64,000 nt of DNA from Saccostrea echinata. Its lineage: Eukaryota. The notes under the pieces are model-generated. The model was not told the origin of the DNA and searched no databases. It saw only the letters and a list, made by a program, of their open reading frames with translations. The position numbers were made by a program, and so were the translations under genes. Where the stretch lies: assembly GCF_033153115.1 (NCBI RefSeq), contig NW_026889772.1, forward strand, positions 1,116,001 through 1,180,000. The letters run 5' to 3'. Positions 1-64,000 of the stretch are shown one piece after another. How positions within the stretch are numbered: position 1 is the stretch's first letter; each line of letters begins with the position of its first letter.

Positions 1-98
1 CAAATCTAAAAGTGGACAGATCATTTGAAATCTTATGCATTCAAATCCAAAAGTGGACAAATTATTCTTACGTATTCAAATCCAAAAGTGGATGAGGC
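1..98 (-). repeat. Degenerate tandem copies (~40 bp) of the KLHDC10 exon-6 3' end and donor region
   Basis: CAAATCYAAAAGTGGA occurs at 1, ~42 and ~77; the last copy is the exon end (STFGFEY|GTAAGA). Confidence 0.65.
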
Positions 99-3000
99 TG
101 TTCCACCACCAAACACATACAGACGATTGTCATGGCTAGCCACCTCATGTCGATACCTGAAATAAAACACAAGTAGGTCCCCTTTAAACTTCCTTAAAAA
201 TTCATTTATCACTTATTTAAAACAATTTCATGGTCTCTAATTGGCAAAATTCAGTTTTGTTTTAAATGGCAGTGAATAAGTTACCATATTCAAATTTTAC
301 CAATAATAGTGTCTGAAAGTTTTTATTTTCTGTACAGTTACCTGCTCTCTGGAACAAAGTCTGACTGGGCAGGTAACTCCTCCCAGGTCAGTGACTGAAG
401 GTCAAGTCTGTGAATGTGAAGGTCATACGTGTACCCTGACGTCCCACCACACACGTACATGTGCTTGCCGATCTTTGTCAGTGTCTGTTGATTGAATATG
501 AGAGATTTAACATTTATACTGTACATTTGCTTGCTGATCTTTGAGCATGTTGAGAGAGTCTGTTGATTGAATATGAGATATTTAACATTATACTGTACGT
601 TTATAAATGTGCGCATGTAATTTACTGTTTTCACTGTAGTACATGTATATAACACTGAAGTAAACACTGTAAGGAACTTATCTTTGAAAATGAATAAATA
701 ATGTCAGGAAAAGAGGTATAAAATCTGAGAATTCAAAACATATTTTATAAGCATCATTTATTTTTTTAAATTAATCTGATTGAGTAGTCAGGCATTCCTT
801 GTTGATTTTCTATTTGCCAACATGACATTACACAGCATAAGAATACAAAGTGTGGGATAGGAAATTGACAAAGAAATTTATCCGGTGATGCATATCCACT
901 GTATAAAGGAGTGAAGACTATTAACCAATCTTCACCTGATATAAAATATACATGTAGATTTCTGACATCTGAGTGACACATGGACATTCTGAAGATTTTA
1001 AAGTGATAAACATTAAACTACAGTCTCCACAATATATCTAGATAATTGCCTTATATTCACATGACCATTATTTTTCTGTGTGATACTCACATGACCATTA
1101 TTTTTCTTTTTGATACTCACATGACCATATTTTCTGTGTGATACTCACATGACCATATTTTTCTGTGTGATACTCACATGACTGTATTTTTTCTGTGTGA
1201 TACTCACATGACCGTATTTTTTCTGTGTGATACTCACATGGCCATACTTTTTCTGTGTGATACTCATATGACTGTATTTTTTCTGTGCGATACTCACATA
1301 ACAAATTTTTCTGTGTGATACTCACATGACCGTATTTTTTCTGTGTGATACTCACATAACCATACTTTTTCTGTGCGATACTAACAAGACCGTATTTTTT
1401 CTGTGTGTTACTCACATGACTGTATTTTTTCTGTGTGATACTCACATGACTATTTTTTTCTGTGTGATATACTCACATGACCGTATTTTTTCTGTGGAGA
1501 TTCTCCTGCACACTTCATATGTCTCCACTTCAGTGTGTCCAGGTTACAAATGTTCAGCTGATTACTGCTGTTAGAACCAAAAGGAACCCCGGTCCCTCCA
1601 AAACACAAAAGGTTCCTCCCAGACCTCAGGACTGAAGTGAAAAAAAAACCTCATTCATCACACTGTCAGATATATTAAGTGTTTATACTTCAGATGTACA
1701 AGGAAACCTGTAAAAGAAACAGCTGTTGCCTCTGAATAACAGCGACATTTGTATAAACGATATTGAAGGACAGACCCAAAAAGAACAAGGAAATCACACG
1801 AGCTCAAAATTTCTTTTACAACAGTTTACATGTAATTGGCATGTTGATGACAATGCCTTAGGAAAAGTAAAAGAAAAACCTTCATATTTAAACATAATAC
1901 CTACCTGCATGTGATGCCAGCTCTATCGGCATGTTACCATCAGTTTCTAGTTTTGTCCATTCCCGTCTTGCAAAGTTAAACTTCCATAACTGTCGTATGA
2001 TATCAATAAAACTTAAACAACAAAGAATGCATAAACAGTGAGTATTTGGCAAAATGTGAGCTGTCTATATTTGTGATCTTGGCTTTTAGAAAATTGGGTC
2101 AATTTTCAGTGCATCTCTATTTTGCTTTGTGAATAATGTCACTGATACAATATATATTATACAAAAAATATGCAGAATTAGACGAAAGAAAATACAATTT
2201 CTTCTTCTGGATGCAACAATTTAAAAAAAATAAATTGATAAACTGATACAAATTAACTATGAAAAACAGCTGCATGATAGCTACTGTCTGAAATCCAGAT
2301 TTTTCACCCAAATTTTACCTCTTTGAACAGTGGGTAGTAGGTATCCTCTGTGTTTGGAACATTCAGGAACTTTGGGTTATAGCCTCCCAGTACATAAAGG
2401 TTACTGTCGTCTACCACGACTCGATGACCACTTCGTGGAAACAGAAAATCTGAAAATGGGTGTATAAAAAACAAATTATGATTCATACAAGTCAGAAATA
2501 AGCTTTCTGTTTAAAGAACAATATAACTGAGTAACAGGAAGGGAGAAAATATGTGACAAATCAGACCAGGATTTGAAACCCGGTCCAATAAACTCTAGAA
2601 GCTGAAATACCATATGAGCTAGACACTGGCTGACCTCGACTGTTGTACGTACAATGTGTATAGTTTCACACATTGACACATTCACAAATATAAAACTGAA
2701 ATATTAGTGCAAAAGTAAACTGGTAAACCAGCCCTTGCAGTTCATTTTGAGTTTGTGATCATGGTGATGCATGAATTCTTTTGTTCTCTTAAATAAAGTA
2801 AATACTCCGATACTTTAGGTAAGTAACACAAAATGCGGCTAACAAAGATCTTTAAACGCAATTAATTTTTTATCCTCCCCACCCCCCCCCCAACAAAACT
2901 TTCACCTATAATGTTTAAATTCATGTGTTTTGAGCAATGTCTTTTATTTTAATCAATCATGTTAAAAAGACTTAATTTATTTTTTAATATCATAAAAGAT

Positions 3001-4668: not shown

Positions 4669-4884
4669 TTTCTAAGGGCGAATTTGTTTCTCAAAAACTG
4701 GTTTTAGTTTCGAACCAGTTTGGTTAACCGTTCATTTGTTCCTCAAACTGGTTTTAAACTAGTTTCAACCCAGAACCGGTTTTCCATTTGTTTTTGCTGT
4801 AACCGAAACCAGTTCCTTGAACCAACCAAACCACCTCCGATGGTGGTTTATTCGGTTTACGAAATAGCGGGAAGCTTTTCCAGC

Positions 4885-6585
4885 ATGGCGACAGCGTCTG
4901 CAATATTGCTGAAATGTGCTGTCTGCTCTTTTGAAACGGAAGTAATTCCGGAGTTTGAAAAACATTTTTGTAAGATAATTGATTCTGCATTTATTTGATT
5001 TGAATGTAACAAAAGGATTTTCTTGTTAATAAAACATCTTTCAGTTATAAAATCCAAAAAAACCAGCATTTGTATGGGATAGAGGAAATTCTAGTTACAG
5101 TATAACTGATGAACAGTAATATATACTTATAGTGATATGGTCTGTCAACAAATATATCTTTACGTTGACAATTTTCATTTACTGACAGAGAATTTTAGTT
5201 TTTAATGTTAAATTTCTGAACATTTCTCACAAAGATTCATTGATTTGAGCAGTATCATTTATATTTGCTTTACTATTATTATATACCTTTTTCATAGGCT
5301 CTACCAACAACAATGTAGTTCAAGTGAAAGAGTTGGTGTCAAAAAAATATCATACGTTAATTTCAGAAGAATTTCTTAACACATATGTGTTTGAAAATGA
5401 AACTGAAGCCAATAACTTTAGAGAGAAAGACCAAGGGAATGATGATAAGGCAGTTATGGTTTTCAACAAAACCAAACCAATTTACCCAAAAGTTAACGAA
5501 AATTTGTCTGTTTTTGGAAAAGAATTTGTACGAAATACAAAACCATGGGTGGTCAATCTCCTTACTGATTGGTGTAGATTCGACGAAGTTATATGCTGCA
5601 AATCTTCAAGATACTCTGAGGCCAATGAAAGCACTGAAACAACTGGTAAAAAATTTATGTCTCTAATTATATAATATATCTATATTTTTAATTCAAAGTG
5701 AAACATCATAAAATGCTGAGTTTGTACATTGTATATTTACCCATTTATGTCAAGCCCCTGATAATATTTGCTATCCCCATGCTTGAATACTACTTAATAT
5801 GCTTTGAACAGAATATGTACATAATATACCAGTCATGATTTTTTTCCAAATTATTTGCAGATGAAAGTAAAACAGATGTACCAAGTACCAGCAATAATTC
5901 ATTATGGTCTGATATACCAAGTACCAGCAATAATTCATCAAGTACCAGCAATAATTCATCAAGTACCAGCAATAGTACCAGCAATAATTCATCAAGAACC
6001 AGCAATAATTCATCAAGTACCAGCAATATTTCATCATGGTCTAAAGTTGCAACCAGTCATCTAATAGAATTACACACCATGCATTCTGCCAAATTCACAA
6101 AACCCTCTATGAAAAAGAAGGAAGTTTGGAAGATAATTTGTTCTGAAATGCACAACAGGGGTTTCTCTTTCACAGTGAATCAATGTGAACAGAAATGGAA
6201 AAATCTTACAAAAGCATATAGAGATTGCGTTGATCACAACTCAAAATCAGGCAATGAACGGAAAGAATGTCCATTTTATAAAGAACTAGAAGACTGTTAT
6301 GGGTATAAACCGAATGTTAAACCCGTATTCACTCTAGGAACACGCAAGGAGGATGAAACCGATAACGAAGAATCAAAGGCAGAGTCAACTTCAAGTGACT
6401 GTGATGTGACCCCCAAAAGAAAGAAGAGTAAGCAGGCAAGTGAAATAGTAGAAATCTTGGATGACATGAGAAAAGAACACAAGGAGATGATGAAGACACT
6501 GAAGGAACAACATCAGAAGAAAATGGAAAATGAAGAAAAAAAACTTGAAATAATGGCTCAGTTGGTTGAAGCCATGAAAAAATAG
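4885..6585 (+). CDS. Harbinger Myb/SANT-like (trihelix) DNA-binding protein, 3 exons, ~385 aa
   Basis: Exons 4885-4969, 5298-5645 and 5861-6585, two phase-1 GT-AG introns, open throughout. N-terminal CxxC-x12-HxC, then a Ser/Thr/Asn repeat linker, a W..W..QCEQKWKNL..Y..CPFYKEL Myb_DNA-bind_4-type domain and a C-terminal coiled coil. Confidence 0.88.
5878..6040 (+). repeat. 21-bp coding repeat (STSNNSS) in the Myb-like protein linker
   Basis: CAAGTACCAGCAATAATTCAT repeated ~7 times, in frame. Confidence 0.9.
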
Positions 6586-7715
6586 TAACAGTAGTAACTA
6601 TTATGTTATCTTTTAGTGTAAGAAAGATTACTTAATGGTAATTTCTGGCAAGTTAGCGGACTGGTTTGTAGTTGACAGGAGAATCTGATACGACCATTAG
6701 TCAATTTTTCATGCCTTGTTATTATCAGATAAGATTATTTCATTGTTGATGAAAGTTCCTATTGTGGTATATTAAGTAAAGACTTAAGTAAGTTTTTAGT
6801 ATCAAGTTTGTCTGGTCTTGGCTGTTGTCACTGTTGACTTTCTTTTGATTTAAATATTTATTATCTTCTGTAGAACCCAGATGATTATCATAAATAAAGC
6901 TTTTTTCTTAAATTTGAAAATGAAAAGTATGGAGACTATTTTTAAAAAGTTTTAAATATTTGAAAATTGTTTTGTTCTTCAAGGAGAAATAATTCTTTGG
7001 CCTTTAATTCCACTGTTTGATGCATGTATTTTATAAGGCTTTAGAGAATAGATAAATAATTTGAATTTGTTCATAATAGTGGTCAGAAATCAAAATATTA
7101 AAAGTTTTCTCTTCAAAAATGAGTTTTGGTTAATTTGGTTATTAGTTTTAGAATCATTAGAAAAATAGTTAACATGTATTGTAAGGTAAATTATTAAACA
7201 TACTGTAAAGTTGGTTTGAATAATGGAAATCTAAAGTACATTTACCTGTGTGGACCTATGATAATCCAATTGTTTTAAATTATTACAATGTGATTACTAG
7301 TAGTCATCCATTCATAAATCATGATGTATACAGTATACATGTATCAGAATGTTTTGTAAAATTATTTATATAAGCCCTTGAGTATAATAGAAGGGGAGCA
7401 CTAGCTTCAAGACCGCATTATTTTGAGGAAGGTATCCTCTGTCTTTGATTTATTTTTGTGTTACAATAAAATTTAATATACCTGAGTTTTTATCTTTCCA
7501 CTGTGTTGAAAAAAAAAAATTCAGAATTTGATCATTGATGAATATTTGATGCATTAATATAAATACTTCATTTTAAGTAAGATTAACAATGAACAAATAA
7601 ACTTTTTTTGGATTCTTTATTAAGAAAGGAGTTTCAGTTTCTCATGCATGTGTAATTTAGATATGTTTTTCTGTTCATAACAAGGTGCCTACGTTGTATA
7701 TGAACAGGAAAAATA

Positions 7716-8860
7716 TTATAACATTCTTGCAATACTATCCCTCTTTTCTCCTGCAGCATTATTTACACATAAAATTTGCACAAAGTTGTTGACTTCATCC
7801 TCTCCTCCCTCCTCTATATACTCTACACAATCATCGTCATGCTGTAGACAAAATTCGTGCAATACACAGCAACTGATCACTACTTTTACAATTTTTTCAA
7901 TGTCCTGAATGTCTACAAATTTTAAGCGGCGAAATCTTCCTTTTATGGCCCCAAAAGTGCGTTCAATTACCATCCTAGTACTGCTGTGAATATAGTTGTA
8001 CTGATACTGACTTTGTGTTAGGTTTCCACGGTCCCTGTAGGGAGTCATCATCCACATTTCAAGACCATAAGCAGAGTCCCCCAAAAGGTGTGTATTGTTG
8101 GGAAACATCCCCTCTGGGTCTTTCTGAATCCTTTGGTACAATTCTGAATTTTTAAAAACTCGGGAGTCATGCACAGATCCCGGCCAACCACAGTTAACAT
8201 CTAATAAATGCATTTTTGAATCACACACGGCCTGAAGAATGACAGACGGAAATGACTTTCGATTAATGTAGTTTTCTGGACAATGATTTGGAGTTTTTAT
8301 AGGTATGTGACTACCGTCAATGGCACCAATTACAGCAGGGAAATTTTTTAAATCTTTAAACCCTTTAACAATGTTGGAAACTTTTTCACCATCTGGCCAT
8401 TTTATGCATTGCTGCAGAAGTTCACGGCAAACAATGTTTGCGAGGCGCTTTACAATATCAAAGACTGTATATTCACATACTCCGAATTGGTCAGCAATAG
8501 CTTGGATTGTCATTTGTGTTGTCAAATAGCGTATGAAAATTAATAACTGTTTTTCCATTGGTATAATTGTTTTCTCTTTAAATTCTAAGAAAATTGTTAA
8601 AAGAGATGAAAATGTTCCTGGGCTCATTCGAAACCTTCGTCTAAAAACTTTGGAATGATCTCCTCAACATAGTTAAGCGCTCGAGGAATTCTGATCCGAC
8701 GCTGAGGAATCAGGGTCATAAGAGCAGAACACATTGAAGTATGCATTTGGAGTTGAGACAATAGACCAACTTCATGATCTTCTAAGTTGCTATCATTTTC
8801 TAAAAATGCAGAATTAATAATCATGCAAACACAGGCATGTTTGTGCCTTTTAGACGCCAT
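7716..8860 (-). CDS. Harbinger (HARBI1-like, DDE_Tnp_4) transposase, frameshifted near 8625
   Basis: Catalytic motifs IGAIDGSHIPI, GSVHDSRVF, LLGDSAY and RMVIERTFG are intact in ORF 8627-7716. The N-terminal part (MASKRHK...YVEEIIPKFLDEGF) is in another frame and joins at the conserved FRMS motif. Confidence 0.93.
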
Positions 8861-8988
8861 CTTTATGTCTAAACTGTTCATTTGTTTTACCGAGGCAAAC
8901 CGGATTGAAACTAGAAACCAGTTTGAAAACTAGTTTCAAACTATAAACCAAAACCTGAACCAGTTTAAGCGCAACAAATTCGCCCTAA

Positions 8989-9400
8989 GTTTTTTTCTGT
9001 CATTGAAAACGTTCATCTGACCGTGATTCAATAACTGTTAAGATTTTATATTATCACTTTGCTGATTGGTTCATCTTTCCAAGTATGTCCAATCAAAAAG
9101 ATCGTATCTAATTGGACTCGGTATAAAGTACAAAATGGAGAATTTTGTAAACAATAAACGAATTTCAAGTTGCAGTGTAATGTATTGTAATTTACTCCTG
9201 AATTTTCCAATATTGATTTTTTTTGTCATCTTTCTCGAGAGATGACACATTAAGTTTGTAACCCCGGATATGAAGCCCCAGTGTAAGCTGCCATTGATAA
9301 GCTGGTGGTCTGGCAAATGACACGATTTCTAAATATAGATATGTAAACAAAACTGCTCAAAGACGAGGAATGGGCGATCTGTCAAACAGGCCATCTTAAA
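8989..9400 (-). promoter_or_regulatory. Probable native KLHDC10 5' UTR/promoter, displaced by the Harbinger insertion
   Basis: Directly continues the empty-site sequence; three CCAAT/ATTGG boxes at ~9064-9115 and a YY1-like GCCATCTT near 9391. Positional inference only. Confidence 0.4.
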
Positions 9401-36600: not shown

Positions 36601-38084
36601 GGAGTATCTTACTATGGGTATGTTTTGAGAGTGTTCCTTTAAGGGTAGGTTATGAGAGTGTCCTGCCTAGGAAAGGTTTTGAGAGGAGATCTTTACCAGT
36701 ACTGTAGTTTGTTATAAGTGTCCTTCTCATTTTTTTATATCAGGGAACCGGAGCCACCCGGCCTCTACCAAACCCCAGTTTTCAGAGGGAGACCCTCGCC
36801 TTAAATATGTCATGAAAAAACTGGATCCCAGAATTCACTTTGCTCTCGTGTGCGGAGCAGTGGTATGTAGATTTCTATTAAATGGGTACAATGTATAGGT
36901 ATTGGCAGTTGATTTCACTCATTGAAGTTTGGATAAGGAAAAATTTATATCTTATAGAAGCAGTTATCCATTAGCAACAAATGTTAACATTCTTATATTG
37001 CAAAACTATCTTCTTATTTGTAAGTACATGATGTGTACATAATAAATACTTATTCTGCAGTCCTGTCCAGCCATCAATGTGTACACTGCAGAAAACTTAG
37101 ATAAGGCTTTGGACCAGGCCACACGGAATTTCTGTAAACAGGAGGTGTCCATGTTCACAGAGGTGGATGAAGTCTGGCTCTCCAAGATCTTCCTGTGGTA
37201 TCGCGATGACTTTGGGGGAAACAGTGTTTCAGTTATTGAGTAAGCAGTTTATAATCTATTAAACAGTAGTATGAACTTATATTTGGAAATTATCTCATTT
37301 AAATCAGATTCATTCTATTTATATGTAGCACAATTTCCAAAACAAATATGTAAAAGGAACTTCATAAGTCATGATGTTGATGCTGAATTCCAAAGTTCAT
37401 CACAGGATTCATTTCACATTCACTATTCACTCAGGATCATATTCATGAAAAGGGGTGAAGATAAGGCCAATATATAAAATACCTTTGTTTACCCTAACGC
37501 GACCGACCCAATTAAATCCTGCCAACTGAAAAGTTTTTTTCGAATTAGATTATTCAAATAATTTTTTTTAATATTAACAAGTTTTTAATATTTTTACAAG
37601 TTCAATTGAATAATAATTGTGAATTAATTTACCTTGAAGTTTGCTTAAAAACGGCATTGGTAATGGTGAGATAATTCTGTTAAATCGTTTTCTTTGTACT
37701 TTTCTTATTTTTAAAGGTTATATTCCATTATATATAAATTTATATATTTTTATATTGATTAAAAGTTGCTGTCAGAAAAAAAATTATCGACCTACCTACC
37801 TACCCAACTTGAGATTTTAGGGTCAGGTTAAGGGAAACAATGATATTTTTAATGATGGCCTAATGAACAGTGTGAATTATGAACTCAATCACGTTGAAAT
37901 TAATTTAATTTTAATTCTTTTGATTTGTTATTTTAGATGGATTATGCCATATCTTGAGAAAGACATTCAGGACAGAGCTGTAGTCCTTCTATTTAAAATT
38001 AAAAATGTAGGTCAGGTGGACATTAAGTACAATGAGTATGATTGGCGGCTTAACAAGCTGGGAGTCACGCCTCTCATTCTGTGA
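27642..38084 (+). CDS. DUF547 domain-containing protein, 6 exons, 288 aa
   Basis: Exons 27642-27754, 28786-28940, 33679-33831, 36744-36862, 37061-37239 and 37937-38084 (867 nt, phases consistent). Family motifs AFFINLYNALTIHG, SLDDIEHGILRGN, DPRIHFALVCGAVSCP, LSKIFLWYRDDFG, YDWRLN. Confidence 0.93.
28143..28273. mobile_element. 131-bp near-perfect palindromic MITE with 5-bp TSD
   Basis: TCGAT|CCACAAGGGCTTGCTCCCGGCGTGTAAT...ATTACACGCCGGGAGCAAGCCCCTGTGG|TTGAT. Confidence 0.9.
29255..31277 (+). repeat. 43-bp minisatellite, ~47 copies
   Basis: Unit AGACCACAACATAACAGCTAGTGTAAGTGTAGGGGTTTTATAG; roughly a single monomer at the paralogous site 21893-21953. Confidence 0.97.
31763..32023. mobile_element. 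Short MITE with G/C homopolymer subtermini
   Basis: CATGGCTGTAGGAA ... TTCCTACAGGCTTG imperfect TIR. Confidence 0.55.
33763..33915 (+). repeat. 76-bp exon-3 end plus donor duplication, 2 copies
   Basis: Donors after 33831 and 33907. Confidence 0.95.
34432..36724. repeat. 27-bp minisatellite, ~80 copies, decaying up to the exon-4 acceptor
   Basis: Unit CTCACCAAGTGTAGGTTATGAGAGTGT with variant blocks repeated at higher order. Confidence 0.97.
37465..37860. mobile_element. Tourist-like (PIF/Harbinger) MITE
   Basis: TAA|GGCCAAT..AAAATA..TTGTTT.CCCT ... AGGGAAACAA..TATTTTT..ATGGCC|TAA. Confidence 0.75.
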
Positions 38085-44963: not shown

Positions 44964-47149
44964 TCAGACAGAAATGCTCCCCTCTCTGAAGTTGGTCTTC
45001 CCGATGAGGATGTTGACTAGGATGCTATTTCCTTCTCTGTTCAGTTTAATCGTCTCCTTTAAGATCTCGCGGATCTTGTCTTCATTACTTCTGTCCAGCT
45101 TCAGTCCCATGCCTCCATAACCAATGGCAACCTTTTCATAGTCTGTGAACTAAAAATAAACACAGAATTTTTTTTATTAATCAAATTCTAATTTTCTATG
45201 TGAAAAGAGCCTAAAGACAATTTAATACATCCAATTTGATGTAGTGTATTCTTTAATAAGGTGTTTACTGTGGTATTTTTTCGGGGGGGGGGGGGGGGGG
45301 GGGTATTAATTTAGTGATTGAGTAAAAACTTTGGATTTTCTTGCAATGACAATACCATTAAACATTCTGCAATTCCTTAATTTAAACATTAGATAATGAT
45401 TGAATTTCACACATTCACTTGAAAAGGAAACCAAGAGATGAGCTGACCACAATGTGTATGCCCTGGTCTTGCTGACTGATGTATAATTTTTGAATCTAAA
45501 CATTATACTTCTAATGTGGTATGATGCATGCATCAAAATTAATTTTGACAAACTATAAACAATTCTCTATAAGATTTTTTCCAACATACTAGATCTCCTT
45601 AAGAAACCTTAGACATTATTAACTCATCTATTGTAAACATAGTAAAAATAAAAATAAAAGTAAAAATATAGAGAGGGGGCTCACATTTCTTTCTTATCTA
45701 TGGTGTTATTTACTTACTGCTAATTTACAGGCCACACTGCTATGGTGTCGTTTACTTACTGCTAATTTACAGGCCACACTGCTATGGTGTTATTTACTTA
45801 CTGCTAATTTACAGGCCACACTGCTATGGTGTCGTTTACTTACTGCTAATTTACAGGCCACACTGCTATGGTGTTATTTACTTACTGCTAATTTACAAGC
45901 CACACTGCTATGGTGTCGTTTACTACTGCTAATTTACAGGCTATGATGTCATGATTTCGTTTACTTACTGCTAATTTACAAGCCACACTGCTATGGTCTC
46001 GTTTACTTACTGCTAATTTACAAGCCACACTGCTATGGTCTCGTTTACTTACTGCTAATGTACAGGCCACACTGCTATGGTGTTATTTACTTACTGCTAA
46101 TTTACAGGCCACACTGCTATGGTGTCGTTTACTACTGCTAATTTACAGGCTATGATGTCATGATTTCGTTTACTTACTGCTAATTTACAAGCCACACTGC
46201 TATGGTCTTGTTTACTTACTGCTAATTTACAGGCCACACTGCTATGGTCTCAATTACTTACTGCTAATTTACAAGCCACACTGCTATGGTCTCGTTTACT
46301 TACTGCTAATTTACAGGCCACACTGCTATGGTCTCGTTTACTTACTGCTAATTTACAGGCCACACTGCTATGGTCTTGTTTACTTACTGCTAATTTACAG
46401 GCCACACTGCTACCAAACATAGGAACTTGTTCTCTCTCAATCTGTGTCCACCCAGCATCATTGCCAACCAATGCCATCACAGGTATCTATGAAAGTAACC
46501 AATGAAGGTGTAAAAATATATTAAATGGTCAACATTATTCTTTGTAAGATATGAACCCATATACATGTAACCAAACTGAGTAAATCCATGTGCATGTGTG
46601 TGGCAATATTATTCATTCATCATTTTATTATGCAATAAAATAGCTGTTCAGTTTGTTTTAAAATGAAAAAAAAAATTCGTTGTTTATTATCAAATCTACA
46701 CACATACCAGTGATACAAGTAGTTAAATCATATAATAACATGATTGGATGAGATTTACTTACAAGTATATGTAAAATAAGTCTAGAATTTGTAAATCAAA
46801 CCTTGTGCCTGGTGAAGGTATCAAACTCTGCGATGCTGTAACCAAGGGAACCGTCGCCATAGATAATCCACACATCAGAGTCAGGGCGACATAGCTTAGC
46901 TCCCAGGGCGAATCCTCCCCCAACCCCCAGGGTACCAAATGCTCCAGGGTCTAACCAGTGGAGGGGGGCACGGGGTCTGGTGAGAGACAACAGGATATCA
47001 GTTATAGGATACAGTATTAGGCAGATCAAATGTAACAACAGGTCAATGGGCCACTATGCTCCCCTGAATCATATTCATGTACTGGAATATATCAGTATAA
47101 AAGAGAATTTGTATTTATTGCCTAAAATTCATTCTGACCATTTTTTAGA

Positions 47150-47189
<40 letters not shown>

Positions 47190-48071
47190 CGTTGTCCATC
47201 GTCCGTCCATCTGTCTGTCCGTCCGTCCGTCTGTAAACTTTTCACATTTCCAAATTCTTCTCAAGAACCACTGTGCCAATTTTAACCAAACTTGGTACAA
47301 AGTATCCTTGGGTGAAGGGGAGTTTAAATTGTTAAAATTAAGGGCCAAATCCCCTTACAGGGGGAGATAATCAAGAAAAGACAAAAATAAGGTGGGGTCA
47401 TTAAAAAATCTTCTTCTCAAGAACCACTGGGCCAAAAAAGCTGAAACTTATGTGGAAGCATCCTGTGATAGTGTAGATTTTAAATTGTTAAATCATGACC
47501 CCTGGGGGTAAGGCGGGGCCACAATAGGGAATCCAAGTTTTACATTGAAATAAATGGGAAAAATCTTTAAAAATCTTCTTCTCAAGAACCACTGGGCCAG
47601 AAAAGCTTAAACTTATGTGGAAGCATCCTTGGGTAGTGGAGATTTTAAATTGTTCAAATCATGACCCCCGGGGGTAGGGCGGGGCCACAATAGAAAATCC
47701 AAATTTTACATTGAAATAAATGGGAAAAATCTTTAAAAAACTTCTTCTCAAGAACCACTGAGCAACAAAAGCTTAAACTTATGTGGAAGCATCCTGGGGT
47801 AGTGTAGATTCTAAATTGTAAAAATCATGACTTCCGGGGGTAGGGCGGGGCCACAATAGAAAATCCAAATTTTACATTGAAATAAATGGGAAAAATCTTT
47901 AAAAATCTTCTTCTCAAGAACCACAAGGCCAGAAAAGATGAAATTTATGTGGAAGCATCCTGGGATAGTGTAGATTTTAAATTGTAAAAATCATGACCCC
48001 CTGGGGTAGGGCGGGGCCACAATAAGTATTACAATGGGGAAATCTGGTAAAGAACAGCATGGCCAAAGTTA

Positions 48072-48107
<36 letters not shown>

Positions 48108-54100: not shown

Positions 54101-57100
54101 TCATTAGTTACACAAATGTGCCTGCCTTAATTACAGGTACACACACAGTCATATTTATTCCCCTTCTGACTCTACACCGGGAACCTCATCTTCATTCTAC
54201 ATTTAAAATTTCATTTCATTCTAATCATGATGTCAAGTTGAAGAAAATAATACATACCAAGTTAAAAAAAAATTCCTAATAATTATAAATAAAGGTAATT
54301 GTACATTATTGTAAGTAATAACTGAAAACATAATGAGACTATATAGCCAATTTAGTTTAATGTCACTTATTCACCTGGCCCAGCAGTGACTATAGATACT
54401 CAGTTTACTGGTAGTTTGAGGTCACTTATTTACCTAGCCCAGCAGTGATTATAGATACTCAGTTTACTGGTAGTTTGAGGTCACTTACTTACCTAGCCCA
54501 GCAGTGATTATAGATACTCAGTTTAGTTTGATGTCACTTATTTACCTAGCCCAGCAGTGACTATAGATACTCAGTTTAATTTAATGTCACTTATTTACCT
54601 AGCCAAGCAGTGATTATAGATACTCAGTTTAGTTTGATGTCACTTATTTACCTAACCCAGCAGTGACTATAGATACTCAGATTAGTTTGATGTAACTTAT
54701 TTACCTAACCCAGCAGTGACTATAGATACTCAGTTTAGTTTGATGTAACTTATTTACCTAACCCAGCAGTGACTATAGATACTCAGTTTAGTTTAATGTC
54801 ACTTATTTACCTAGCCCAGCAGTGACTATAGATACTCAGTTTAGTTTGATGTCACTTATTTACCTAGCCCAGCAGTGACTATAGATACTCAGTTTAGTTT
54901 GATGTCACTTATTTACCTAGCCCAGCAGTGACTATAGATACTCAGTTTAGTTTAATGTCACATATTTACCTAGCCCAGCAGTGATTATAGATACTCAGTT
55001 TAGTTTAATGTCACTTATTTACCTAACCCAGCAGTGACTATAGATACTCAGATTAGTTTAATGTCACTTATTTACCTAGCCCAGCAGTGCTTAAAAATAC
55101 TCAGTTTACAGGTAGTTTGATGTCACTTATTTACCTTATAGATACTCAGTTTACTGGTAGTTTGATGTCACTTATTTTCCTGGCCCAGCAGTGATTATAG
55201 ATACTCAGTTTACTGGTAGTTTGATGTCACTTATTTACCTAGCCCAGCAGTGCTTATAAATACTCAGTTTACAGGTAGTTTGATGTCACTTATTTACCTA
55301 GCCCAGCAGTGCTTATAAATAATCAGTTTACAGGTAGTTTGATGTCACTTATTAACCTTATAGATACTCAGTTTACTGGTAGTTTGATGTCACTTATTTA
55401 CCTAGCCCAGCAGTGCTTGTAAATACTCAGTTTACAGGTAGTTTGATGGGGTACCTGTAAAATGCGAAACGAAATAGAAACAAAACGAAACGGAACGAAA
55501 TGAAACGAAATCTACCGAAACGAAACGAAATCTTACGAAACGAAATGAAACCTACCGAAACGAAACGAAACTTACCGAAACGAAACAAAAACGAAACGAA
55601 ATCAAAACGAAACCTACCGAAACGAAACGAAAACTACAGAAACAAAAAACGAAATAAAATCGAGCAAAAATGAAATATATATGTATAAACATTATGATTT
55701 AAAATATATTATACAGTGTATATTTTATAAGTAACGAGTCTCTTTTGATACGCAGTGAAAGATAAAAAAGATTTTGTGCATTTCTAAACGTGCACATTTG
55801 TAAGTATGGATTACACTTTTAAATAGATATTGCTCATTTTAGTGCAAAACAAACACATTAGACTAAGCCTATACATATAACCCAAGTTATCACTTTCGGG
55901 TTCTTGTTAATACAATCCATTTGTATGTATACTTGTATACTCAAAATCAGATTTTAAGACCTGGCGATTCTTGATCTGCTTTTGCCCAACACCAAACTAT
56001 ATCAGATCACAGTAATTTAAAAGCGGAGGATAAGCATTTTTTTTTTTTAAAAAATAATTCGGTGAAATTGCAACATCAAATTTAAATTAAATTCAAAGCA
56101 TACATTTATCGAAATTAAAATTCAATTTTTATCAAATCATTTGAACAAGCCTTGAAACCACCAGAGGAGGGGGGGGGGGGGGGTCCTTCTCGGAACTACC
56201 TCTCAAATAAAAATTAAAAAAAGCTGGACCCAACAATAATCAAAAGTATAATAATAATTAGGCTTTGTATAATTGATCACATATGTATAACAGTAATGCA
56301 CTTTTTTTTATTTAACTCAATGTGTACATTTTTTTTTTAAGTTATGTTTAAAGACATTCGCAATACAACAGTACAGTAACTTTATTTCGATACGTAAATA
56401 GAAAAGCTTTTACATGTAGCACATCAATTATGAGAAATTTATTGTATTTCGATGGTTAAAGGCTAAAAATAAAAGTAAGACATAAAAATTAGAGAATACT
56501 ACGCTTATTTTGAAATGAGTATTTTGAAATTATATAGTATGCTCGTGCATATTTGTAGCTGGCAGTTGATTTACAGTATATATAAGCATGTATAAGTAAA
56601 TACATCACTAGAGAAGGGAGCATTTATAGGTGTTTAAATATTATATTAACAAGCGCTTGAACTATATAAATTTTATATGAAGTAAAAATAGTCCATATAC
56701 AGTTACACATTATATATAATGATATACCTTGATTTGAAAAACCTTCTGTTTCATTTCGTTTGGTTTCATTTTGAGTTCGTTTCGTTTCGGTAGGTTTCGT
56801 TTCTATTTCGTTTCGCATTTTACAGGTTCCCGTTTCGTTTCGTTTCGGTAGATTTCGTTTCGTTTCATTTCGTTTCGTTTCTATTTCGTTTCGCACTTTA
56901 CAGGTACCCTAGTTTGATGTCACTTATTTACCTAGCCCAGCAGAGCTTATAAAAAATCAGTTTACAGGTAGTTTGATGTCACTTATTTACCTTATAGATA
57001 CTCAGTTTACTGGTAGTTTGATGTCACTTATTTACCTAGCCCAGCAGTGACTATAGATACTCAGATTAGTTTGATGTCACTTATTTACCTAACCCAGCAG

Positions 57101-60100: not shown

Positions 60101-63100
60101 CACTTATTTTCCTGGCCCAGCAGTGACTATAGATACTCAGTTTACTGGTAGTTTGATGTCACTTATTTATCTAGCCCAGCAGTGCTTATAAATATTCAGT
60201 TTACAGGTAGTTTGATGTCACTTATTTACCTTATAGATACTCAGTTTACTGGTAGTTTAATGTCACTTATTTACCTGGTCCAGCAGTGACTATAGATACT
60301 CAGTTTAGTTTGTTGTCACTTATTTACCTAACCCAGCAGTGACTATAGATACTCAGTTTAGTTTGATGTCACTTATTTACCTAGCCCAGCAGTGACTATA
60401 GATACTCAGTTAAGTTTGATGTCACTTATTTACCTAACCCAGCAGTGACTATAGATACTCAGATTAGTTTGATGTCACTTATTTACCTAACCCAGCAGTG
60501 ACTATAGATACTCAGATTAGTTTGATGTCACTTATTTACCTAACCCAGCAGTGACTATAGATTCTCAGTTTAGTTTGATGTCACTTATTTACCTAACCCA
60601 GCAGTGACTATAGATTCTCAGTTTAGTTTGATGTCACTTATTTACCTAACCCAGCAGTGACTATAGATACTCAGATTAGTTTGATGTCACTTATTTACCT
60701 AGCCCAGCAGTGACTATAGATACTCAGTTTAGTTTGATGTCACTTATTTACCTAGCCCAGCAGTGACTATAGATACTCGGTTTACTGGTAGTTTGATGTC
60801 ACTTATTAACCTAGCCCAGCAGTGACTATAGATACTCAGTTTAGTTTGATGTCACTTATTTACCTGGTCCAGCAGTGACTATAGATACTCAGTTTAGTTT
60901 GATGTCACTTATTTACCTAGCCCAGCAGTGACTATAGATACTCAGTTTAGTTTGATGTCACTTATTTACCTAGCCCAGCAGTGACTATAGATACTCAGTT
61001 TAGTTTGATGTCACTTATTTACCTAGCCCAGCAGTGACTATAGATACTCAGTTTACTGGTAATTTGATATCACTTATTTACCTAGCCCAGCAGTGACTAT
61101 AAATACTCAGTTTACTGGTAGTTTGATGTCACTTGTTTACCTGGTCCAGCAGTGACTATAGATACTCAGTTTACTGGTAATTTGATATCACTTATTTACC
61201 TGGTCCAGCAGTGACCGCTGCCACACCAATCGTCCCTGACATCCTGGCTACAGCATCTGCTGCAAAAACTGTAGTCACCTGACAACAATTCAATACAAAT
61301 AATCATTTTAGTAATGAAAAGCATTAATCAATTTTAACCTGGTGTATATGGAATGTAAATCAATTATTCAAAACTATCAATGATGCCATTACTAATTTGT
61401 TATAACAATTTCAGGATGCTGTAAATTTTTTTAAAAGACCAATTAATCATCTGTTTTGAGAATTATATTACAGTGATTTATGTTAAACTTTATTCAAATT
61501 ATATTGAACTAAGGCCAAATTTATATGATAGCCATTATAATAATATTTAACAACATCTTTCATACAAGTATTTTTTCATTAAGTGTTTACAAAAGGAAAA
61601 CTATCAAAAATGTTCTCTTCTTATAAGCTATGAAATGTATAGTGGACATTTTTTCATGGCCATTGGCACAACTTCACTGATTTTATGACTAAATTCATAC
61701 CTCATGTCTTGTGTCTACAACTCTTATCCCAAGCTTTTCACAAGCTACGAGTATAGGGGATATATGTCCTCCTACGAGGGTAAACACATACTTCACTCCG
61801 TGTGCCTACAAACCAAATCAAACAGTGTATAATTCTGACATTTTTATATTCGGTTTATGTCCTCATGGATGAAAAAATGGATAAGAATGATTAAAGATTC
61901 CAAAATGTGTTCTATGCAAAAACTGCAAAATAAACCAGTTATTTTAAAATCCAATACTGTATCAACTCTGATTTCTTACACCTAAAAACTAAGTGCACAT
62001 GTAGTTCTGAAGCAGCTGACTTTAATTTATAACTAAAATAAACACGGAAGACTTGATAATTCTCTGTATTTTCCTCCAAACTTTTTCACTCTTCAATACA
62101 GAAAAAGTGAAATTATCTGCAGCTAGAGTTAAAAGATATATCCCAAATTCTATTGTTGATTTAACTGCAGTAAAGTTTACATATTTCTGAGTGAAAATTC
62201 TTGATGAGATATTAAACTTTAACCAAATTACTGTTTAATTCTATGCTCAAGGGAACTATTTGTGTGTATACTCCAGTTGATCCAAACTTTACAGAACTAT
62301 AATCAATTAAACTGAATCATTTGGGATTAAAATCATTGTTAATTATAAATCTTAGACATGAAAAGTTAAAAAATTATTATTTGTAATATTGTAGATTGCA
62401 AGGATATGAGACACTAATGGGGCTATAACAAGAAAGAAACATTATGAAGGACATGACCAGGATGGGAGCCTGTGGCCCCAAACTCTTTACAAAGTGCTTC
62501 AATAACTGAGGTATCTAATTCTTACTAGGGCTGTGTGTTGAGCAAAAAATTTTGATACGATATAATATGATATTTTATAAAGTGATATGCAATATATTGG
62601 ATACCTTAACAAGTCTATCAAAAAACTCTTGTAAATCATTTTATTTTAATGCATAAAATTTTTTGAAAAATGAGTGTTTTAAAAACAATTTCAAAGTTCT
62701 TGTCTTGCTGTCATTATAAAATACGCTTCAAATTCAACTTTTTAATGACTATAAAACCAACATGTTTAAAAAAAAATATCTATGCATTTTATAATAATTA
62801 TTTAAGATGTCATATCTCCTTAATGTTTATATCATTATTGATCTGTTTTAATTCAAAACAGTCAAATATAATCTTTGGTGATTGAAATTCCTAACTTTTT
62901 CACAGAATTATAAGAAAAACCGCCAGCCCGATACATATTGGAAGTTATTTCTTCGATACGATACATTCTTGAATATTGATATACATGTATAATCGATATA
63001 CATTGATACAACCCTAATTCTTACCATGGACTGACAGGAAACCTGTCAATAAGCCGGCCACCATGTACACCAAGATCAAGAGTTTTATCTATTAAATTTA

Positions 63101-63479
63101 TTTTGTATTCCTGTCCATATATTACCTTAAGGACATCCGCCACAATGTCGCCACCATTCCTCTTTGTTTTGCTGTCAACCTGTGAATGAATTATTGAATA
63201 TTACCCATCATGAAAATCTAATGAGAGGCTTTTCATCAGAGCTACAGACAGCCCTTCAAAGCAGGTTTCTGATATGCTCATGTCATATGGAAATAAAACT
63301 AAACACAATGCTTGACTCCAAATCAGAAATGAATCGAGGATTACCTTGTGAAATAGCTGATAAATTATTCCGAACTTCCTCAGGAAATACACGGTCCCTA
63401 GAGCTGCTGCAGATAAACCAACAGGAAGAGCCAAGTTTCTGAACAATTTCTGCAAACTCTCATTTTGTGACCCAGCCAT
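44964..63479 (-). CDS. ILVBL: 2-hydroxyacyl-CoA lyase 2 / acetolactate synthase-like ThDP enzyme, 16 exons, 633 aa
   Basis: Exons 63479-63345, 63179-63126, 61805-61701, 61278-61200, 54056-53965, 53558-53420, 52831-52717, 51957-51857, 51463-51354, 51025-50902, 50755-50661, 50315-50161, 49488-49351, 46976-46802, 46486-46388 and 45149-44964 (1902 nt, all GT-AG, phases consistent). Motifs [39 protein letters not shown], ThDP motif GDGS...GND, N-terminal hydrophobic anchor, C-terminal FREGSISV. Confidence 0.97.
45700..46412 (-). repeat. 42-bp ILVBL exon-15 end plus donor array, ~17 copies
   Basis: Minus-strand unit AGCAGTGTGGCCTGTAAATTAGCA|GTAAGTAAACGAGACCAT. Confidence 0.96.
47141..48106 (-). 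mobile_element. HINE / CvA-like element, same family as 15913-16998
   Basis: Reverse-complement termini (..CCCATGGGCCTCTTGTT), (CCGT)n microsatellite, ~4 x 167-bp units. Confidence 0.87.
48785..49392 (-). repeat. 52-bp ILVBL exon-13 end plus donor array, ~11-12 copies
   Basis: Minus-strand unit GTGGTGGTGATTTTGTGGCCACTGCTGCATACATCCTCAG|GTTAGTTTACAG. Confidence 0.96.
49988..50112 (+). mobile_element. Isolated 3'-end fragment of the Penelope-like element
   Basis: CAGGGAATGCTTAC.CCTCCATGGCACCTGATCCC.CCTCTG..GTCCGTGTTTGCTCTGCTC matches 15197-15315. Confidence 0.8.
51966..52245 (+). mobile_element. Short Helentron-type non-autonomous element
   Basis: AACAAGATGTGTTTGTGAAACAC start, (ACAG)n microsatellite, terminal hairpin TATGCGCCC.GAT..ATC.GGGCGCATA. 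Confidence 0.75.
54350..61216 (-). repeat. ILVBL exon-4 end plus donor array (53/59/45-bp variants, ~100 copies, ~1.65-kb higher-order repeat)
   Basis: Minus-strand unit GTCACTGCTGG(AC/GC)(C/T)AG|GTAAATAAGTGACATCAAACT..AAACTGAGTATCTATA; near-identical variant blocks 1652 bp apart (58114 and 59766). Confidence 0.97.
55449..56909. mobile_element. Mutator/foldback-like non-autonomous element with (GAAAC)n-rich TIRs and 10-bp TSD
   Basis: TAGTTTGATG|GGGTACCTGTAAAATGCGAAACGAAATAG ... CTATTTCGTTTCGCACTTTACAGGTACCC|TAGTTTGATG. Confidence 0.88.
62526..63016. mobile_element. hAT MITE with perfect 8-bp TSD
   Basis: ATTCTTAC|TAGGGCTGTG ... TACAACCCTA|ATTCTTAC. Confidence 0.88.
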
Positions 63480-64000
63480 CTTTTGCCGTGGACTTTGTGT
63501 CGGCTTCTGCCACCTACTTTCACTTTCATTAATAAAAAAGTAGGCCAATCCTATTTCATGCATACAACATGTACAATGAATACGATGAATTCTTCATCAA
63601 ATATTATTAGCTATAACTTTGTTTTCTAAGTAATAAATGAACCCCTTATATTTTCAAATTGTTGATTTCTATCTCTAAAATAGATAGATTGATCTATTCT
63701 GTTCATTTTATATGATATAAGCGACCATTATAATCATTTTGCTGTTTCCGGTTAGCAGTCTGACGTGTATGCCCTCGGTCAAACCATACTTATAGGATAA
63801 ATGTGACTGACTAATTTGTCGTCTACTTAAGGTAACGTTAGGGTTTTCAGCTGTGACTACAGTCATACATTATCGAAAAAAATAAATTCTACATTGAACG
63901 CGATATTGACATTAACATACGATTAGTGATTAACCAACTATAGATCTAATTGATAAACATTAACATTTTGAATGTTTTGATAAGCCAGTTGTGTTCACGC

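What the first reader, a model, noticed from the sequence alone, without database searches (positions are those of the whole stretch)
54350..61216. A 7-kb intron built almost entirely from ~100 copies of its own 5' splice site
Intron 4 (54057-61199) is mostly array plus one MITE. There are three unit variants (53, 59, 45 bp) and a ~1.65-kb higher-order duplication, and the units nearest the exon match it best (GGACCAG|GT) while most distal ones read GGGCTAG|GT. Any distal donor hits G|GT AAA TAA, an immediate stop, so correct expression needs the first of ~100 near-identical donors to be chosen, or stepwise re-splicing. This shows a splice junction maturing into a satellite with higher-order structure.
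Basis: partly seen in the sequence, partly recalled or inferred. Interest (0 to 1): 0.7.

Follow-up and report, generated by a model that had tools for sequence, protein, structure and literature searches.

The report
Splice-donor minisatellite in oyster HACL2 intron
In an oyster gene for a fatty-acid-cleaving enzyme (HACL2), the end of exon 4 and its splice signal are repeated 100 more times along a 7-kb intron, but the first signal is likely the one used, so this is likely a harmless, large example of a repeat type already known from lancelet and human genes.

Summary
The array is real. Intron 4 (54057-61199, 7,143 bp) of an oyster HACL2/ILVBL gene holds 100 full units (53, 59, 45, 54 bp; 75% of the intron), each ending in a copy of the exon-4 end before a donor-like site, plus a 1,461-bp MITE. 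88 of 100 extra donors keep GT. The 1,652-bp higher-order duplication is confirmed.

It is a 'mirage', a minisatellite spanning an exon-intron boundary, known from amphioxus and human F7, where only the first donor is used. Likely-RNA contigs join exon 5 to a ...CAG end. That excludes 81 of 88 intact decoys as the main donor, but the junction itself was not seen. Stepwise re-splicing lacks support: the units score as poor acceptors.

The unit occurs only at this locus, so this is no satellite family. The same architecture occurs at six other donors in the window. In a genome sample, 17 of 368 donors start a repeat (background 2.1%); this held in motor genes but not in kinases. The scan found this arrangement before, in this genome and others, with arrays over 1,000 copies. 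Verdict: new member of a known kind.

The parts
61200..61278 (-). HACL2/ILVBL exon 4 (79 nt; [27 protein letters not shown]); its last ~17 nt are the exonic part of the repeat unit
   Evidence: tblastn with oyster orthologues; TPP_enzyme_N match below the curated cut-off; open 633-aa model
61194..61202 (-). Authentic 5' splice site CAG|GTAAAT (first intron base 61199)
   Evidence: PWM score 10.9, equalled by 3 decoys and exceeded by none
56910..61199 (-). Proximal part of the array, units 0-80 (53/59/45/54-bp variants)
57407..60170 (-). Higher-order duplication: units 19-39 recur as units 50-70 (offset 1,652 bp, 99.2% over 1,112 bp). A further 11-unit run recurs at 1,534 bp, and an 8-unit block is present three times
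55449..56909 (.). 1,461-bp MITE inside unit 80, ~155-bp imperfect inverted ends, 10-bp target duplication; dispersed family
   Evidence: 13 other near-full internal copies at 90-95%; target duplications of 9-10 bp at 3 of 5 other copies inspected
54330..55448 (-). Distal part of the array, units 80-100; the last unit fades into unique intron
55402..55454 (-). Candidate 53-nt cryptic (poison) exon between an acceptor supplied by the MITE end and decoy donor 81; contains an in-frame stop; use not shown
   Evidence: acceptor score 11.5, donor 8.0
54057..54328 (-). Unique remainder of intron 4 with the real acceptor
53965..54056 (-). HACL2 exon 5 (92 nt)
   Evidence: covered and joined to exon 6 in 4 of 4 runs
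48785..49393 (-). Sister array in the same gene: 52-bp unit x11.7 spanning the exon-13 donor
45698..46412 (-). Sister array in the same gene: 42-bp unit x17 spanning the exon-15 donor

Best explanation
This is a locus-specific minisatellite whose unit copies the last ~17 bases of HACL2 exon 4 and the first ~40 bases of intron 4, and it is likely neutral because splicing likely uses the first donor and removes all copies with the intron. Inferred history: one tandem duplication across the donor (a 3-base GTC match lies at the likely breakpoints), then expansion by slippage or unequal exchange. That gave the 53/59/45-bp variants, multi-unit block duplications and a later MITE insertion, growing a ~0.3-kb intron to 7.1 kb. 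Inferred splicing mechanism: the donor nearest the exon-4 acceptor is committed first, as shown for human F7. Rare use of a later donor would give a stop and likely decay.
For: Anatomy and unit confined to this locus. Intact 633-aa frame. In 4 of 4 likely-RNA runs from two studies, cover reaches exactly 3 bases past the exon-5 boundary. That fits an upstream ...CAG end, not ...TAG or ...AAG (depth arithmetic, done), and leaves 7 of 88 intact decoys possible. Three contigs have 384-401 letters beyond exon 5 against 373 for exons 1-4. Decoy donors are neither visibly conserved nor eroded: variants at 6 of 9 donor positions against about half of the other 50. Two copies of another gene in this assembly, likely haplotypes, differ in such arrays, e.g. 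4 v about 14 units. Precedent: PMC1557585, PMC3087553, PMC3902484.
Against: The exon 4-exon 5 join was not seen directly. Unit 1 (also ...CAG) is not excluded by the arithmetic. Contigs drop rare isoforms, so low-level decoy use is untested. One of the four runs (X10) is a more diverged relative that may lack the array. PMC1557585 reports that the second and third donors are used in human 6-16 and CBS. The MITE end offers a strong acceptor 53 nt before a decoy donor. No raw reads and no second allele of this locus were available.
Confidence: 0.84

Rival explanations
1. The array is a leaky regulator: some transcripts use decoy 1 or include the 53-nt MITE-acceptor/decoy-81 exon and are destroyed by NMD, so copy number or the MITE tunes HACL2 output.
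For: 88 of 100 decoys keep GT, and 58 score 8.0, inside the range of the gene's own donors (5.3-12.0). The MITE acceptor scores 11.5 against 4.6 for the real exon-5 acceptor. Proximal decoys are used in human 6-16 and CBS (PMC1557585, introduction).
Against: The laid contigs join exon 5 to a ...CAG end, not the ...TAG of decoy 81, and run on unbroken for 384-401 letters. No sign of selection on the decoy donors.
Confidence: 0.09
2. The intron is removed stepwise (recursive splicing) through the AG|GT at each unit end.
For: All 100 units end in AG and 88 continue with GT. The 15-nt stretch between the AG at -15 and the GT would keep frame.
Against: Acceptor scores are at most 1.5 (AG before GT) and 3.7 (AG at -15), with purine-rich upstream sequence. 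Sub-introns would be 38-59 nt. A 7-kb intron does not need it (own knowledge). No paper held all of 'recursive splicing', 'tandem repeat', 'donor', 'oyster'.
Confidence: 0.03
3. The copy number and higher-order repeat are partly an assembly artefact.
For: The duplicated blocks are 99.2-99.8% identical. Raw DNA reads were not available.
Against: The blocks differ by substitutions and whole-unit indels; there are 50 distinct unit sequences among 100; only one block copy carries the MITE; flanks are unique.
Confidence: 0.04

Closest known systems
Amphioxus 'mirage' minisatellites (Adh3, globins BflGb6/BflGb9, TnC, PGBD5). Seen: passages of PMC3087553 (abstract, section 16) and PMC3902484 (section 17); the original Adh3 paper was not held
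   Same: [quoted passage not shown]
   Different: Mollusc host; 100 units against 3-6 in BflGb6; multi-unit block duplications and a MITE inside the array
Human F7 IVS7 37-bp VNTR and the 6-16, CBS, LMNB2 and PDGF cases (PMC1557585: abstract, introduction, discussion read)
   Same: First unit holds the real donor; later units repeat it; only the first is used in F7, LMNB2 and PDGF
   Different: 5-25 copies there, 100 here; the real donor here is also the top-scoring sequence variant; the mechanism has not been tested in molluscs
Recursive splice sites (recalled, no call)
   Same: AG directly followed by GT inside an intron
   Different: No pyrimidine tract; spacing 45-59 nt; short intron
Mutator/foldback-like MITE (family label recalled, no call)
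   Same: Long inverted ends with internal pentamer repeats, 9-10-bp target duplication, dispersed copies
   Different: No transposase partner was sought; applies only to the insert at 55449-56909

Membership tests
Mirage / boundary-spanning minisatellite | Head-to-tail units that span an exon-intron boundary, terminal unit holding the real splice site | tested here: met
Mirage / boundary-spanning minisatellite | Unit derived from the gene's own boundary, not a dispersed repeat | tested here: met
   28 of 28 matches lie in this intron (lower bound)
Mirage / boundary-spanning minisatellite | Normal splicing is not disturbed | tested here: inconclusive
   Indirect support...CAG upstream end in 4 of 4 runs and fitting contig lengths; join not seen, minor isoforms invisible
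Mirage / boundary-spanning minisatellite | Length varies between alleles | not testable with these tools
   No second copy of this locus in G000; sister arrays differ between two likely haplotypes of another gene
Mirage / boundary-spanning minisatellite | Concerted evolution inside the array, edge units left out | tested here: met
   Shared interior variants and block repeats; units 0-2 and 96-100 are of types not found in the interior
Recursive splicing site | Strong acceptor (pyrimidine tract + YAG) directly before a GT | tested here: not met
   At most 1.5 for unit ends v 3.5-12.1 for real acceptors; the PWM was trained on my own junction calls
Recursive splicing site | Intermediates or saw-tooth cover in nascent RNA | not testable with these tools
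   Only assembled contigs were offered
Genome-wide satellite DNA family | Unit present in large arrays or at many loci | tested here: not met

The most novel reading that the evidence does not exclude
In oysters, minisatellites are born preferentially at 5' splice sites, not at acceptors or random intron positions. That would point to a splicing- or transcription-linked source of tandem duplications, or to one-sided survival because first-donor choice hides donor copies. Sample: 17 of 368 donors v 2.1% background (ratio 2.2, region bootstrap 1.1-3.6), acceptors 6 of 351 v 2.2%. For arrays of three or more copies (a setting chosen afterwards): 14 of 368 v 0.35%. The excess came from myosin and kinesin genes (15 of 222) and did not repeat in kinases (2 of 146).
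Probability: 0.3. Interest if true: 0.55.

Novelty: new member of a known kind. Interest (0 to 1): 0.25.

Why it matters
As a single locus it matters little: it is a large instance of a named, tolerated repeat class, and earlier notes of this scan describe arrays ten times larger (unchecked). It is a usable natural test of first-donor choice, with 88 intact decoys, and it shows how an intron can grow twenty-fold from its own boundary. The wider point, a possible donor bias in where such arrays start, would bear on how minisatellites arise and on intron growth and gain. My sample supports it only in two of three gene families.

Tried and rejected
Run search for 61150-63600: no holder on record as RNA. 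Laying X1, X2, X4, X6 on 61100-63700 covered only a repeat in intron 2 and none of exons 1-4. This is unexplained, since X1 and X2 hold the downstream exons, and it is not used as evidence. The loose end at 54056 was not among the rows shown. Replication of the donor excess in 60 kinase regions failed: 2 of 146 donors, 2 of 147 acceptors, background 2.7%. No link of junction arrays to exon CpG depletion (16 v 101 regions, p=0.93; whole-region p=0.04 uncorrected) or to distance from contig ends (p=0.45). Dropped before the counts: region C36:1.79M as a likely haplotype duplicate (60 of 61 motor regions kept); junction calls scoring under 2 or within 300 nt of a region end (222 donors and 204 acceptors from 321 exon segments; 146 and 147 from 199). 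Junction calls are automatic: at least three motor-set donors fall on a neighbouring GT or unit, and some arrays seen by eye were missed. Arrays cluster by gene, so the binomial p-values are too small. The 43-bp (29242-31278) and 27-bp (34450-36662) arrays are intronic and do not span junctions. Papers not held: the Adh3 mirage paper and Zhuo et al. 2007; both known to me only as cited in PMC3087553. Searches that found no genome-wide or mollusc survey of mirages: (open-access library only; listings, not full texts; no supplements read).

Full report
Gene. The minus strand of 44964-63479 encodes a 633-residue 2-hydroxyacyl-CoA lyase 2 (HACL2/ILVBL). The best named hits are oyster proteins. A 16-exon model has 15 of 15 GT-AG introns and 586-589 of 633 identities to three oyster orthologues. 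Seven of its introns (146-759 nt) are skipped at the modelled lengths by contigs of public runs. Intron 4 is 7,143 nt (54057-61199); the other 14 are 146-2,374 nt. Earlier scan notes call this genome a rock oyster; I did not test that.

Observation. An anchor search finds 101 donor-like sites, the first being the real donor CAG|GTAAAT. The 100 full units are 53 bp x45, 59 bp x34, 45 bp x19 and 54 bp x2, in 50 distinct sequences, 5,354 bp in all. Each 53/59-bp unit is the intron's first 38-44 bases followed by a copy of the exon's last 15-17; the 45-bp unit lacks most of the exonic part. A run of 21 units recurs at 1,652 bp with 99.2% identity, an 11-unit run at 1,534 bp, and an 8-unit block three times. 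A 1,461-bp MITE with a 10-bp target duplication splits unit 80. Thirteen other near-full internal copies at 90-95% were listed in the genome. About 0.3 kb of the intron is unique. All 28 genome matches to a 291-bp piece of the array lie in this intron (lower bound).

Are the decoys usable? 88 of 100 keep GT. On a matrix trained on 222 donors called in this genome, the real donor scores 10.9; 3 decoys equal it and none exceeds it. Two with GTAAGT score 10.6, and 58 score 8.0, near the median of 8.4. So by sequence they look usable. Any transcript that reads past the first donor meets a stop two codons on. Variants occur at 6 of 9 donor positions and about half of the other positions, so neither conservation nor erosion of the decoys is visible.

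Which donor is used? No raw RNA reads were offered. Contigs of four runs guessed to be RNA (two studies) were laid on exons 5-12. X1-X3 show 0-2 differences per listed exon piece in the exon-joining contigs; X10 is more diverged. In the bin 54008-54168 the depth equals 52 covered bases in 4 of 4 runs, three beyond the exon-5 boundary. Three shared letters are expected if the upstream exon ends in CAG, two if it ends in TAG or AAG. That leaves the real donor and 7 of 88 intact decoys. The contigs have 384, 401 and 397 letters beyond exon 5, against 373 for the coding part of exons 1-4. This fits the first donor with a short leader, and leaves little room for the six more distant CAG decoys, each of which would add at least 336 repeat bases. 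Unit 1 is not excluded by arithmetic, though it would carry a stop. This is indirect evidence about the main isoform only.

Re-splicing. The AG before each decoy GT scores at most 1.5 as an acceptor, and the AG at -15 at most 3.7. The gene's real acceptors score 3.5-12.1. The one strong acceptor next to a decoy is the MITE end (11.5), 53 nt before decoy 81; that exon would carry a stop. Its donor ends in TAG, so it is not the main partner of exon 5.

How common? The window alone has six other donor-spanning repeats: two more in HACL2, two in copies of a DUF547 exon, two in a kelch gene. To sample the genome without regard to repeats I took myosin-head, kinesin-motor and kinase regions and asked whether the 16 bases across a called junction recur on the intron side only. 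Motors: 15 of 222 donors v 1.9% of intron positions; 4 of 204 acceptors v 2.1%. Kinases: 2 of 146 and 2 of 147 v 2.7%. Pooled: 17 of 368 donors (ratio 2.2, region bootstrap 1.1-3.6) and 6 of 351 acceptors. The motor excess held under five settings and the kinase excess under none; for arrays of three or more copies it is 14 of 368 v 0.35% (chosen afterwards). So such arrays are common here, cluster by gene, and may favour donors, but the bias did not replicate in one of three families. Two likely haplotypes of one myosin gene differ in array length and presence, as neutral turnover predicts.

Known systems. Tandem repeats spanning exon-intron boundaries are named mirages in amphioxus, with normal splicing reported and allelic length differences (PMC3087553, passages; PMC3902484, one passage). 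In human F7 only the first of 5-9 identical donors is used, and mutation shifts use to the next. The second and third are used in 6-16 and CBS (PMC1557585, abstract, introduction, discussion). I found these papers before consulting the scan's notes. The notes list 51 similar findings in at least 27 genomes, including two in this genome and arrays of over 1,300 copies (unchecked). Nine literature searches showed no mollusc or genome-wide survey; the library is open-access only.

Mechanism, shown v inferred. Shown: unit origin, array structure, MITE, stop on read-through, single-locus distribution. Indirectly supported: first-donor use in the main isoform. Inferred: initial duplication at a 3-base match (GTC in both the exon end and the last unit), expansion by slippage or unequal exchange, ordered donor choice as in F7, decay of mis-spliced RNA, neutrality.

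Verdict. Observation confirmed; interpretation partly supported; new member of a known kind; interest 0.25.

Noticed in passing
window 48785-49393 and 45698-46412 (-): Two more donor-spanning arrays in the same HACL2 gene (52 bp x11.7 at exon 13; 42 bp x17 at exon 15), so 3 of its 15 introns carry one.
   Followed up: partly
window 23158-23461 and 33764-33915 (+): A 76-bp donor-spanning repeat (4 and 2 copies) in two copies of a DUF547-domain exon (Pfam). About 20.6-23.5 kb is a partial duplicate of about 27.8-34 kb.
   Followed up: partly
window 1053-1496 and 1-110 (-): Kelch-repeat gene with a 30-bp x15 donor-spanning array and a second, decayed one at the window edge.
   Followed up: partly
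window 55402-55454 (-): The MITE's terminal arm reads as a strong acceptor on the gene strand and with decoy donor 81 defines a possible 53-nt stop-containing exon.
   Followed up: partly
window 55439-55448 and 56900-56919: The MITE inserted where the repeat unit itself reads TTTACAGGTA, the same 10 letters as the element's end; chance or target preference not tested.
   Followed up: no
window 29242-31278 and 34450-36662 (+): Large purely intronic minisatellites (43 bp x47, 27 bp x82). The 43-bp unit appears only about 1.5 times at the matching place of the duplicate segment (near 21900), so it expanded in one copy only.
   Followed up: no
L048-L049 v L050 (G000 C5:766k, C36:1.79M): Two near-identical copies of one myosin gene with several junction arrays, donor and acceptor type, that differ in copy number or presence.
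   Followed up: partly
L061 (G000 C4:11.14-11.15M): Another donor array (32 bp) appears split by an insertion of about 1.2 kb, the same layout as here.
   Followed up: no
window about 4690-9000: Harbinger-like element with a nuclease-like frame on one strand and a Myb/SANT-like frame on the other (labels recalled from the sequence, no search run).
   Followed up: no
window 15996-16768 and 47404-48024: Short arrays of a 166-168-bp unit resembling the common oyster satellite (label recalled).
   Followed up: no
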